From: a virus
Taxonomy: Duplodnaviria > Heunggongvirae > Uroviricota > Caudoviricetes
Length of the DNA stretch: 23,859 nt
Virus record (IMG/VR): IMGVR_UViG_2690316225_000008
Direction: 5' to 3' (one strand)
Of this stretch, positions 19,986-20,606 are shown piece after piece. The notes beneath the pieces are model-generated. The model was not told the DNA's origin and ran no database searches. It worked only from the letters and a program-made list of their open reading frames with translations. The translations under genes and the position numbers were made by a program. Positions within the stretch are counted from its first letter, which is position 1. Every line of letters begins with the position of its first letter.

Positions 19986-20210
19986 ATGTCATCAAAGAAC
20001 AGAACCCGCAGAACAACAACCCGCAACATCCGATTTCCAAACCAGATAATTGAACAAATTAACATCGCTCTTGACCTAAAAGGTTCAGGTAATTTTTCAG
20101 CGTGGGTTATTGAAGCCTGCAGAAGAAGATTAATTAATGAAAAATATTCTCAATTTGTACCCAACAAAGACAAACACGACCAGAGCACCTGTTCAGACAG
20201 GTTTACTTAA
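19986..20210 (+). CDS. Small ribbon-helix-helix-like DNA-binding protein (hypothetical; possibly YlcI/YnfO-type prophage protein)
   Basis: 74 aa; basic N-terminus then RNIRFPNQIIEQINIALDLKGSGNFSAWVIEACRRRL, the strand-helix-helix pattern of CopG/Arc-type repressors; lies between cos and the lysis module. Confidence 0.4.
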   Translation: MSSKNRTRRTTTRNIRFPNQIIEQINIALDLKGSGNFSAWVIEACRRRLINEKYSQFVPNKDKHDQSTCSDRFT

Positions 20211-20228
20211 ACGACTTATATATGACAC

Positions 20229-20257
20229 AAAAAGCGACCACTAAAGTCGCTTTTTCT
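20229..20257. terminator. Bidirectional intrinsic terminator between convergent genes
   Basis: aaaaagcgac-cactaaa-gtcgcttttt: short GC stem flanked by A-tract and T-tract, between the stops of 19986-20210 (+) and 20292-20606 (-). Confidence 0.55.
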
Positions 20258-20291
20258 TATGGTAACAGGCAATAACTCTCTCAGATATTTT

Positions 20292-20606
20292 TTAGCATTT
20301 TTTTGACCGCGCGTTTCCGGACGTATTCTGTTCTCCTGTCCCTTTATATCGTCGGAATACCCGCCGCTCTTCAAATCCCATTCCCAACTCAGAATGTAGT
20401 CTGTTGACCGCTTGTTTTATTTCGGTCAGGTTCACCGGTGAAACCGGAGTCCGGCGCGCCTTACGCAAACACTCTGCTCGTTTCTGTGCCGCCACTTTTC
20501 TTTTCTGGTCATCACTTAGCTGTACCATCACTTTTGCCCATCGTTCAGCTGCTCTCCGGTACAGTCCTTTTTTCTCCAGACATTCTGCCACGTGATCATG
20601 TAGCAT
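20292..20606 (-). CDS. PerC-family-like small basic regulator (Pch-like), hypothetical
   Basis: 104 aa, MLHDHVAECLEKKGLYRRAAERWAKVMVQ…; LE.KGL.RRAA..W pattern and size recalled as PerC/Pch-like; preceded by a long AT-rich upstream region. Family assignment from memory only. Confidence 0.4.
   Translation of the reverse strand: MLHDHVAECLEKKGLYRRAAERWAKVMVQLSDDQKRKVAAQKRAECLRKARRTPVSPVNLTEIKQAVNRLHSELGMGFEERRVFRRYKGTGEQNTSGNARSKKC

What the first reader, a model, noticed from the sequence alone, without database searches (positions are those of the whole stretch)
19986..20606. Two-gene moron between cos and the lysis cassette: RHH-like protein and PerC-like regulator, convergent on a shared terminator
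Neither gene belongs to the conserved late operon. 19986-20210 (+) encodes a small protein with a CopG/Arc-like ribbon-helix-helix signature. 20292-20606 (-) encodes a 104-aa basic protein with a PerC/Pch-like N-terminal pattern. They converge on an A-tract/stem/T-tract terminator (20229-20257). PerC-family prophage proteins are known to activate virulence regulators in pathogenic E. coli, so this cargo may matter for host phenotype.
Basis: partly seen in the sequence, partly recalled or inferred. Interest (0 to 1): 0.5.

Follow-up and report, generated by a model that had tools for sequence, protein, structure and literature searches.

The report
Known pchA virulence-regulator cassette in prophage
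This stretch of a lambda-like E. coli prophage carries an exact copy of pchA, a well-studied gene that switches on the gut-attachment machinery of pathogenic E. coli, next to a small conserved phage gene of unknown function, so the finding is real but already known.

Summary
Both ORFs and the hairpin are at the stated coordinates, between cosN (19767-19778) and the end of Rz (21072).

- **104-aa protein (20292-20606, minus strand).** It is a full-length PerC-family protein (Pfam E 3.8e-44). It is 100% identical to PchA (ECs_1091) of E. coli O157:H7 Sakai, an experimentally characterised activator of the LEE1/ler promoter that works by displacing H-NS. The surrounding 901 bp are 899/901 identical to the Sakai locus.
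- **pch cassette.** It occurs in 673 of 5426 complete E. coli genomes, usually in three copies. NCBI's PGAP pipeline already annotates it.
- **74-aa protein (19986-20210, plus strand).** It belongs to the uncharacterised YlcI/YnfO family (DUF3950). A ribbon-helix-helix fold is plausible but not proven: the sequence motif, predicted secondary structure and weak Arc-like/HicB-like profile hits fit, but there is no significant structural match.
The 74-aa gene is not part of a two-gene moron. It is a conserved resident beside cos in lambda itself and in the K-12 prophages DLP12 and Qin. Only about 950 bp (about 20130-21070) are inserted cargo: the 3' tail of the ylcI-like gene, the bidirectional terminator, pch, an AT-rich leader and a conserved 46-aa ORF.

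Novelty: already known. Interest: low.

The parts
19767..19778 (.). cosN cohesive-end sequence (AGGTCGCCGCCC, reverse complement of lambda GGGCGGCGACCT)
   Evidence: Exact string match. The flanking DNA is nearly invariant between the window, lambda, DLP12 and Qin.
19986..20210 (+). YlcI/YnfO-family gene (DUF3950), 74 aa. Probable ribbon-helix-helix DNA-binding protein, antisense to the late operon.
   Evidence: Pfam PF13132 E 1.3e-17 and NCBIfam NF041551 E 1.6e-08, both above cut-off. phrog_949 E 6.4e-31. Against the lambda homologue, 13 synonymous and 6 non-synonymous codon differences. PGAP names it 'YlcI/YnfO family protein'.
20130..21070 (.). Approximate extent of the inserted pch cassette (moron): new 3' tail of ylcI, terminator, pch, AT-rich leader, 46-aa ORF
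   Evidence: Left edge: homology to lambda, DLP12 and Qin ends near codon 49 of ylcI. Right edge: homology to pch-less prophages resumes at 21061-21102, at the Rz stop codon. GC content is 33% (20607-21071) and 49% (pch), against 54% for the window.
20229..20257 (.). Bidirectional intrinsic-terminator-like hairpin shared by the two convergent genes
   Evidence: Folding on both strands gives z -2.9 and -3.4. The element is 100% conserved in the Sakai and A25 cassettes. Termination itself is inferred.
20292..20606 (-). pch gene, group 1 (PchA/B/C, 'PerC1'), 104 aa. Same orientation as the late operon.
   Evidence: Pfam PerC PF06069 E 3.8e-44, profile positions 1-89 of 90. 104/104 identical to PchA ECs_1091 of O157:H7 Sakai. 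UniRef name 'PchABC family transcriptional regulator'.
20607..20848 (-). AT-rich pch leader and promoter region
   Evidence: The wider stretch 20607-21071 that contains this part is 33% GC. One weak sigma-70-like match on the minus strand, TTGCCA-17-AATAGT at 20839-20811. This is the most variable part of the cassette, 82% identical to strain A25. Promoter function is not shown here.
20849..20989 (-). Conserved 46-aa ORF of unknown function inside the cassette. No obvious Shine-Dalgarno sequence.
   Evidence: phrog_2157 E 2.7e-37 over its full length. The exact sequence is on 577 contigs. 139/141 nt identical in the diverged A25 cassette. Coding status is not established.
20841..20862 (+). Plus-strand terminator-like hairpin with a T run, overlapping the stop codon of the 46-aa ORF
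   Evidence: Listed by the consensus scan. Folds at -14.8 kcal/mol, z -5.1. Function unknown.
21072..21596 (-). Rz spanin gene, the last lysis gene and right-hand neighbour of the cassette (context). Rz1 is embedded at 21134-21319.
   Evidence: Pfam Phage_lysis E 1.2e-48. PGAP annotates 'Rz1 family lipoprotein' at the matching position in L001.
19074..19583 (-). Nu1-like terminase small subunit, divergent from the ylcI-like gene across cos (context)
   Evidence: Pfam Phage_Nu1 E 1e-18. PGAP annotates 'terminase small subunit'.

Best explanation
The locus is the well-known pch cassette of attaching-and-effacing E. coli, carried in a lambda-like prophage.

**The pch gene.** The minus-strand gene 20292-20606 encodes a protein identical to PchA. 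PchA is a small basic helical DNA-binding protein. It binds AT-rich DNA at the LEE1 (ler) promoter and at other virulence loci and reduces H-NS/StpA/Hha/YdgT occupancy there. This de-silences ler and, through Ler, the LEE type III secretion system and non-LEE effectors. That mechanism is shown in the literature for the identical protein.

**The cassette as a moron.** The gene sits in an inserted segment of about 950 bp, between the end of Rz and the 3' end of the resident ylcI-like gene. The segment has an AT-rich leader and a bidirectional hairpin terminator. Its insertion boundaries and GC content were measured here.

**Routes of expression.**
- From its own leader, under host signals. Published work describes anti-SD/DicF translational control of pchA.
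- By read-through of the Q-antiterminated late transcript after prophage induction. This is my inference, based on pch pointing the same way as the late operon (lysozyme, Rz, pch, cos, Nu1, A).

**The ylcI-like gene.** The plus-strand gene 19986-20210 is a separate, conserved gene beside cos in lambdoid phages (YlcI/YnfO, DUF3950). It is most likely a dimeric ribbon-helix-helix DNA-binding protein expressed antisense to the late operon. Its target and role are unknown.
For: Identity and family:
- PerC Pfam match over the whole profile, E 3.8e-44.
- 104/104 identity to Sakai PchA, and 899/901 nt identity over 20200-21100.
- PGAP annotation 'PerC family transcriptional regulator' in hundreds of genomes.

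Distribution:
- The cassette is in 673 of 5426 complete genomes, median 3 copies, with 662 records at >=99% identity.
- ler is in 697 of 5426 genomes.

Published mechanism:
- PMC4764244: PchA activates LEE1 only when H-NS/StpA/Hha/YdgT silence it, and it reduces H-NS occupancy.
- PMC5931665: PchA, PchB and PchC each raise ler::lacZ at least 4-fold, and pchC is induced 8-fold by an SOS-inducing drug.
- PMC7873438 and PMC7769764: an anti-SD element in the pchA coding sequence is relieved by DicF.

Cassette boundaries and composition.

Hairpin.

ylcI-like gene:
- Family hits.
- Present in lambda, DLP12 and Qin at the same position.
- Purifying selection: 13 synonymous against 6 non-synonymous codon differences.
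- Ribbon-helix-helix indications.
Against: - Nothing contradicts the identification of pch.
- Whether the host of this window carries LEE is unknown, so a phenotype cannot be asserted for this particular strain.
- The pch promoter is not located: only one weak consensus match was found.
- Read-through from the late promoter is inferred from orientation alone. It is consistent with, but not proven by, the reported SOS induction of pchC.
- Sequence and profile searches of the PDB found no ribbon-helix-helix protein.
- The hhalign probability against Arc is only 12.6%.
Confidence: 0.93

Rival explanations
1. One reading: ylcI-like and pch form one two-gene moron, acquired and moving together as a functional pair, for example with the ribbon-helix-helix protein regulating pch.
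For: In strain A25 the block from the ylcI start codon to the Rz stop (window 19986-21071) sits next to a different packaging module (HNH endonuclease plus a different terminase), and homology breaks exactly upstream of the ylcI start. The 3' 25 codons of ylcI and the shared hairpin belong to the cassette.
Against: The first 49 codons of ylcI and about 200 bp upstream of it are shared with pch-less lambda, DLP12 and Qin. An HNH-type prophage that carries no pch in the stretch examined also has its own DUF3950 gene next to HNH (L004 9576-9776). The A25 arrangement is therefore explained equally well by recombination within a resident gene. In Sakai Sp4, an IS629 insertion at window position 20128 truncates ylcI beside pchA, and pchA cloned from O157 strains activates LEE1/ler on its own (PMC4764244, PMC5931665).
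Confidence: 0.12
2. The 74-aa ORF is not a ribbon-helix-helix DNA-binding protein. It is a small helical protein with another role, or its conservation reflects DNA-level constraint near cos rather than a protein.
For: No significant structural or PDB-sequence match. The model is only moderately confident (pLDDT 70). The ORF lies within 210 bp of cosN, in DNA that is highly conserved even where it is non-coding.
Against: There is a synonymous excess against lambda, 13 to 6. The family has about 100 representatives at 50% identity, with invariant I15, R16, F37, W40, V41 and C45, and it occurs in contexts away from lambda cos. Arc-like and HicB-like profile hits occur in several members, and the alignment to Arc is in the expected strand-helix register.
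Confidence: 0.25
3. The pch copy in this prophage is silent cargo with no effect on the host, because the host lacks LEE or the copy is not expressed.
For: The window does not reveal the host genome. In O157 strain PA20, pchA and pchB changed little under the conditions tested, and only pchC responded significantly (PMC5931665).
Against: The numbers of genomes with the cassette (673) and with ler (697) are nearly equal, and one genome (O145 RM9872) appears in both lists. Pch also binds and activates non-LEE loci (PMC4764244). The coding sequence and leader are intact and identical to a functional allele.
Confidence: 0.1

Closest known systems
PchA/PchB/PchC (group 1 Pch, 'PerC1') of EHEC O157:H7 Sakai prophages Sp4, Sp11 and Sp14
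   Same: The protein is 104/104 identical to PchA, and the flanking DNA is 899/901 identical. The position immediately downstream of Rz in a lambda-like prophage is the same.
   Different: In Sakai Sp4 the holin-to-pchA segment lies on the opposite strand to the prophage's terminase and head genes, and IS629 abuts pchA and cuts ylcI at window position 20128. In this window the prophage late region is colinear and ylcI is intact.
PerC of the EPEC EAF plasmid (perABC operon)
   Same: Same Pfam family, PF06069. Both activate the LEE1 promoter (PMC4332760).
   Different: PerC is plasmid-borne and is the third gene of the per operon. Here the gene is a monocistronic prophage moron. In EHEC, pch is essential for LEE expression, whereas perC in EPEC is conditional (PMC4764244).
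YlcI (DLP12) and YnfO (Qin) of E. coli K-12, and the unnamed 64-aa ORF beside cos in phage lambda
   Same: Same family (DUF3950 / NF041551). Same position next to cos, divergent from Nu1/nohD/nohA and antisense to the late operon. The N-terminal 49 residues are almost identical.
   Different: The C-terminal 25 residues differ because the pch cassette junction lies inside the gene. No function is known for any member: the literature search returned only incidental mentions.
Arc/Mnt/CopG/HicB-C ribbon-helix-helix repressors
   Same: The motif N-I-R-F-P followed by helix, G-x-G-N-F-S turn and helix matches the Arc pattern N-L-R-W-P, helix, N-G-R-S, helix. There are weak profile hits and the predicted secondary structure fits.
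   Different: No significant structural match, and dimer formation and DNA binding are untested. The Arg/Thr-rich N-terminal arm (KNRTRRTTTR) is longer than in Arc.
Lambda bor and lom, the classical lambdoid 'morons' in the Rz-cos interval
   Same: An insertion between conserved late-region genes, with lower GC than the surroundings, its own terminator, and a host-phenotype function rather than a phage function.
   Different: bor is antisense to the late operon. pch is co-oriented with it, so late transcription should also express it (inference).

Membership tests
PerC family (Pfam PF06069) | Full-length match to the family HMM above the gathering score | tested here: met
   149.3 bits against a cut-off of 22.6, E 3.8e-44, profile positions 1-89 of 90.
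Group 1 Pch (PchA/B/C) | 104-aa protein nearly identical to Sakai PchA/B/C. The group is defined by DNA similarity, size and function. | tested here: met
   104/104 identical to ECs_1091 PchA. The group definition comes from PMC6265319 and PMC5931665.
Group 1 Pch (PchA/B/C) | Activates the LEE1/ler promoter | not testable with these tools
   Shown experimentally for PchA, to which this protein is identical (PMC4764244, PMC5931665). Not measured for this locus.
Group 1 Pch (PchA/B/C) | Encoded in a lambdoid prophage of a LEE-positive strain | tested here: inconclusive
   The lambdoid prophage context is confirmed. The LEE status of the source genome is unknown. Across the collection, 673 genomes hold the cassette and 697 hold ler.
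YlcI/YnfO family (Pfam DUF3950 PF13132; NCBIfam NF041551) | HMM match above the curated cut-offs | tested here: met
   Pfam 63.8 bits against a cut-off of 25. NCBIfam 34.5 bits against a cut-off of 30.
YlcI/YnfO family | Position beside cos, divergent from the terminase small subunit gene. This is an observed regularity, not a formal criterion. | tested here: met
   Holds for the window, lambda, DLP12 and Qin. In HNH-type prophages the gene is next to HNH/terS.
Ribbon-helix-helix (Arc/MetJ/CopG) superfamily | An N-terminal beta-strand followed by two helices | tested here: inconclusive
   The AlphaFold2 monomer shows residues 13-18 extended and helices at 19-32 and 37-55, with core pLDDT 85-89. 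DSSP calls no strand, as expected for a monomer.
Ribbon-helix-helix (Arc/MetJ/CopG) superfamily | Significant sequence-profile or structural similarity to known members | tested here: inconclusive
Ribbon-helix-helix (Arc/MetJ/CopG) superfamily | A dimer with an intermolecular antiparallel beta-ribbon that binds DNA | not testable with these tools
Phage 'moron' | Extra DNA between genes that are adjacent in related phages, with deviant base composition | tested here: met
   Met for pch: boundaries at about 20130 and about 21070, and 33-49% GC against 54% for the window. Not met for the 5' two-thirds of the ylcI-like gene, which is shared with lambda.
Phage 'moron' | Own promoter and terminator | tested here: inconclusive
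   A terminator-like hairpin is present. For the promoter there is only a 9-of-12 consensus match at 20839-20811.

The most novel reading that the evidence does not exclude
The DUF3950 (YlcI/YnfO) protein may be a ribbon-helix-helix DNA-binding factor functionally tied to the phage packaging site or the small terminase, rather than a random small ORF.

Three observations point that way:
- The gene keeps its place immediately beside cos and the terminase genes in both lambda-type and HNH-type prophages.
- Its upstream non-coding DNA, including a 13-nt inverted repeat at 19884-19916, is nearly invariant.
- In a PICI-like satellite, a homologue is fused to the N-terminal DNA-binding part of a Terminase_2 small subunit. 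It sits with a second DUF3950 gene in a repressor-like position, divergent from the primase operon.

Under this reading the protein could modulate packaging, control read-through across cos, or mediate satellite-helper interference. The pch cassette would simply have landed in its 3' end.
Probability: 0.12. Interest if true: 0.45.

Novelty: already known. Interest (0 to 1): 0.1.

Why it matters
Pch proteins are required for full expression of the LEE type III secretion system in enterohaemorrhagic E. coli. A prophage that carries a functional pch copy can therefore raise the virulence potential of a LEE-positive host. This is textbook EHEC biology, and the cassette is already named by automatic annotation.

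The analysis adds three modest refinements:
- The exact limits of the inserted cassette, about 20130-21070.
- The neighbouring ylcI-like gene is a conserved resident beside cos, present even in lambda, and not cargo.
- A conserved 46-aa ORF travels with pch.

The only open question of some interest is the role of the uncharacterised DUF3950 family.

Tried and rejected
- **Rfam.** A gathering-threshold scan of the whole window found no known RNA family.
- **PADLOC.** No defence-system family matched any of the three small proteins beyond one weak MTase_II hit, E 0.0026.
- **PDB by sequence, YlcI-like protein.** The single-sequence and profile searches returned only chance-level hits.
- **PDB by sequence, PchA.** No hit.
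- **PchA structure.** AlphaFold2 from a shallow 4-sequence alignment gave five helices, pLDDT 67, and no PDB relative. This agrees with the published statement that Pch lacks homology to known DNA-binding proteins. It adds nothing new.
- **Phage genome collection.** tblastn of PchA and of the 46-aa ORF found only fragments from an EDL933-induced phage and distant PerC-like genes. No diverged homologues were available to test whether the 46-aa ORF is coding.
- **DicF pairing.** My RNA folding and DicF duplex calculations were ambiguous: the SD is mostly paired but its partners vary, and 18 of 300 shuffled DicF sequences paired as well. I rely on sequence identity to the published pchA instead.
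- **Porter et al. 2005 (PMC543544).** Not held in the library.
- **ANR-family hit.** The weak ANR hit on the PchA N-terminus (13.6 bits against a cut-off of 32) was considered and rejected as non-significant.

Full report
**Context**

The window is the late region of a lambda-like E. coli prophage, read so that the late operon lies on the minus strand.
- The terminase large subunit is at 17174-19072 and a Nu1-like small subunit at 19074-19583.
- Rz is at 21072-21596, with Rz1 embedded at 21134-21319. A lysozyme gene is at 21875-22408.
- The lambda cohesive-end sequence is present as AGGTCGCCGCCC at 19767-19778.
- From about position 5400 onward the window is essentially identical to a prophage of E. 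coli B19374, with three mismatches.

The finding therefore does lie between cos and the lysis cassette.

**Observation**

Both ORFs exist exactly as described.
- The minus-strand ORF has a strong GGAGGT ribosome-binding site.
- The element at 20229-20257 (AAAAAGCGAC-CACTAAA-GTCGCTTTTT) folds as a hairpin on either strand: -12.3 kcal/mol with z -2.9, and -14.7 kcal/mol with z -3.4. In each case 1 of 200 shuffles folds as well.
- It is followed by a T run in both directions. It lies 19 nt and 35 nt from the two stop codons.
- It is perfectly conserved in two other copies of the cassette, including one whose pch gene is only 94% identical.
- The simple consensus scan did not list it. I think this is because the stem extends through the A and T runs.

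I accept it as a bidirectional intrinsic-terminator-like element. Termination itself is inferred.

**The 104-aa protein**

- It matches Pfam PerC (PF06069) over the whole profile at E 3.8e-44.
- It is 104/104 identical to PchA (ECs_1091) of E. coli O157:H7 Sakai prophage Sp4.
- The DNA from 20200 to 21100 differs from the Sakai locus at 2 of 901 positions.
- PGAP already calls it 'PerC family transcriptional regulator', and UniRef calls it 'PchABC family transcriptional regulator'.
- The 814-bp block of pch plus its upstream region is in 673 of 5426 complete E. coli genomes. The median is three copies per genome, and 662 records are at least 99% identical.
- ler, the LEE master regulator that Pch activates, is in 697 of 5426 genomes. 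The counts are close, but I could not test per-genome overlap.

**How Pch works (published, for the identical protein)**

- PchA activates the LEE1 promoter only when that promoter is silenced by H-NS/StpA/Hha/YdgT. It binds AT-rich DNA and lowers H-NS occupancy at LEE and at effector loci (PMC4764244).
- PchA, PchB and PchC each raise a ler::lacZ fusion at least 4-fold (PMC5931665).
- Translation of pchA is blocked by an anti-Shine-Dalgarno sequence in its own coding region. The sRNA DicF relieves this block (PMC7873438, PMC7769764).
- The leader and coding sequence here are identical, so these mechanisms apply by identity. My own folding was not decisive.
- No solved structure or structural relative was found. 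This matches the published remark that Pch lacks homology to known DNA-binding proteins.

**Orientation**

pch points the same way as the late operon. The Q-antiterminated late transcript that runs from the lysis genes through cos into Nu1 should therefore also cross pch. This is my inference. It fits the reported 8-fold induction of pchC by an SOS-inducing drug, but it is not proven.

**The 74-aa protein**

It belongs to DUF3950 / YlcI-YnfO (Pfam E 1.3e-17; NCBIfam above cut-off; phrog_949 E 6.4e-31). No paper I could find gives the family a function.

*It is not cargo.*
- Phage lambda has a 64-aa homologue at the same place and in the same orientation. It is 45/49 identical over the first 49 residues and matches DUF3950 at E 1.9e-20.
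- The K-12 cryptic prophages have ylcI next to nohD (DLP12) and ynfO next to nohA (Qin).
- The gene is under purifying selection: 13 synonymous against 6 non-synonymous codon differences from lambda.
- An RNA-seq survey lists ybcW-ylcI in K-12 as a convergent overlapping transcript pair (PMC12288877). Read literally, that means ylcI is transcribed there.

*Is it ribbon-helix-helix?*
- For: the motif NIRFP, helix, GSGNFS, helix mirrors Arc's NLRWP, helix, NGRS, helix.
- For: AlphaFold2 predicts an extended segment at residues 13-18 and helices at 19-32 and 37-55, with core pLDDT 85-89.
- For: 9 of 19 diverse family members hit a HicB-like PHROG (best E 8.3e-05), and 3 of 19 hit an Arc-like PHROG (best E 6.8e-04).
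- For: hhalign against an Arc-family alignment aligns the strand and helix A in register, at P 0.0023.
- Against: the hhalign probability is only 12.6%.
- Against: Pfam shows no ribbon-helix-helix family.
- I could not model a dimer.

I rate the ribbon-helix-helix reading at about 0.7.

**What is actually inserted**

- Left edge: homology to pch-less lambda, DLP12 and Qin runs from cos through codon 49 or so of the ylcI-like gene and stops at about 20128-20135.
- Right edge: homology to pch-less prophages resumes at 21061-21102, at the Rz stop codon.
- The inserted cassette is therefore about 950 bp. It contains a new 25-codon tail for ylcI, the hairpin, pch, an AT-rich leader and a 46-aa ORF.
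- GC content is 33% across 20607-21071, against 54% for the window.
- The 46-aa ORF (20849-20989, minus strand) matches phrog_2157 at E 2.7e-37. It is 139/141 identical in the diverged A25 cassette, where the adjacent leader is only 82% identical. I could not establish whether it is translated.
- In strain A25 the block from the ylcI start codon to the Rz stop sits beside a different, HNH-type packaging module.
- However, an HNH-type prophage that carries no pch in the stretch examined also has its own DUF3950 gene. Recombination within a resident gene explains the A25 arrangement equally well.

**Verdict**

- The PerC reading is correct, and the gene is pchA itself.
- The ribbon-helix-helix reading is plausible.
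- The 'two-gene moron' should be corrected to a one-gene pch moron (plus a small ORF) inserted next to a conserved gene beside cos.
- All of this is already known or already annotated. Interest is low.

The only thread with some novelty is the uncharacterised DUF3950 family:
- its fixed position beside cos and the terminase genes;
- its nearly invariant upstream DNA, with an inverted repeat at 19884-19916;
- a fusion to the N-terminal part of a small terminase in a PICI-like satellite.

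Noticed in passing
window 1-6200: The tail genes are duplicated and rearranged. Region 1-~800 equals 2005-~2800 at 100% identity, and there are 86-95% copies at 1106-1679, 5463-5762 and 6008-6181. Phage_tail_L domains occur four times, including a JAB::L fusion (1364-2518) and a 948-aa ORF (3299-6145) that fuses tail protein L to a tape-measure protein. A normal tape-measure gene follows at 6471-9050. In the best-matching complete E. coli genomes listed, the query's 6.1 kb collapses onto about 3.7 kb. 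This could be a rare duplication, inter-prophage recombination or an assembly artefact.
   Followed up: partly
L004 5590-6363 (E. coli GCA_003019075.1); proteins P0251, P0231: Two DUF3950 homologues are fused to the first ~50 residues of a Terminase_2 small subunit. P0251 sits with a second DUF3950 gene in a PICI-like element that has an integrase, a D5-type primase, its own TerS and a capsid gene. The pair is divergent from the primase operon, which is a repressor-like position. This hints that DUF3950 proteins are DNA-binding regulators linked to packaging or to satellite-helper interplay.
   Followed up: partly
window 20849-20989 (-): A conserved 46-aa ORF (phrog_2157, E 2.7e-37) with no obvious ribosome-binding site travels with pch. 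PGAP does not annotate it in the records examined.
   Followed up: partly
window 20724-20862 (+): A weak promoter-like site (TAAACA-18-TATTAT, 20724-20753) is followed about 90 nt later by a strong plus-strand terminator-like hairpin with a T run (20841-20862, -14.8 kcal/mol, z -5.1). Together they could specify a small RNA antisense to the pch upstream region. There is no Rfam match.
   Followed up: no
window 19884-19916: A 13-nt inverted repeat (ATCAATTATTACG / CGTATTAATTGAT, 7-nt spacer) lies 70-100 bp upstream of the ylcI-like start codon. It sits in non-coding DNA that is almost invariant between the window, lambda, DLP12 and Qin. It is a candidate operator or promoter element.
   Followed up: no
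L002 32131-33274 and 33366-36376 (Sakai Sp4): In O157 Sakai Sp4 the holin-to-pchA segment lies on the opposite strand to the prophage's terminase and head genes. IS629 abuts pchA and truncates the ylcI-like gene at the position equal to window 20128. This may relate to the weak SOS response of pchA compared with pchC reported in PMC5931665.
   Followed up: no
L001 37839-37890 (E. coli B19374 prophage, outside the window): The prophage that matches this window also carries a DicF sRNA gene (Rfam RF00039, 76.7 bits). DicF is the published translational activator of pchA, so regulator and target can ride on one prophage.
   Followed up: no
window 20292-20606 (-), residues 7-47: The N-terminus of PchA gives a weak, sub-threshold hit to the ANR (AraC negative regulator) family: 13.6 bits against a cut-off of 32, E 0.046. 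From my own recollection, ANR proteins have been reported to interact with H-NS. The hit is not significant as it stands.
   Followed up: no
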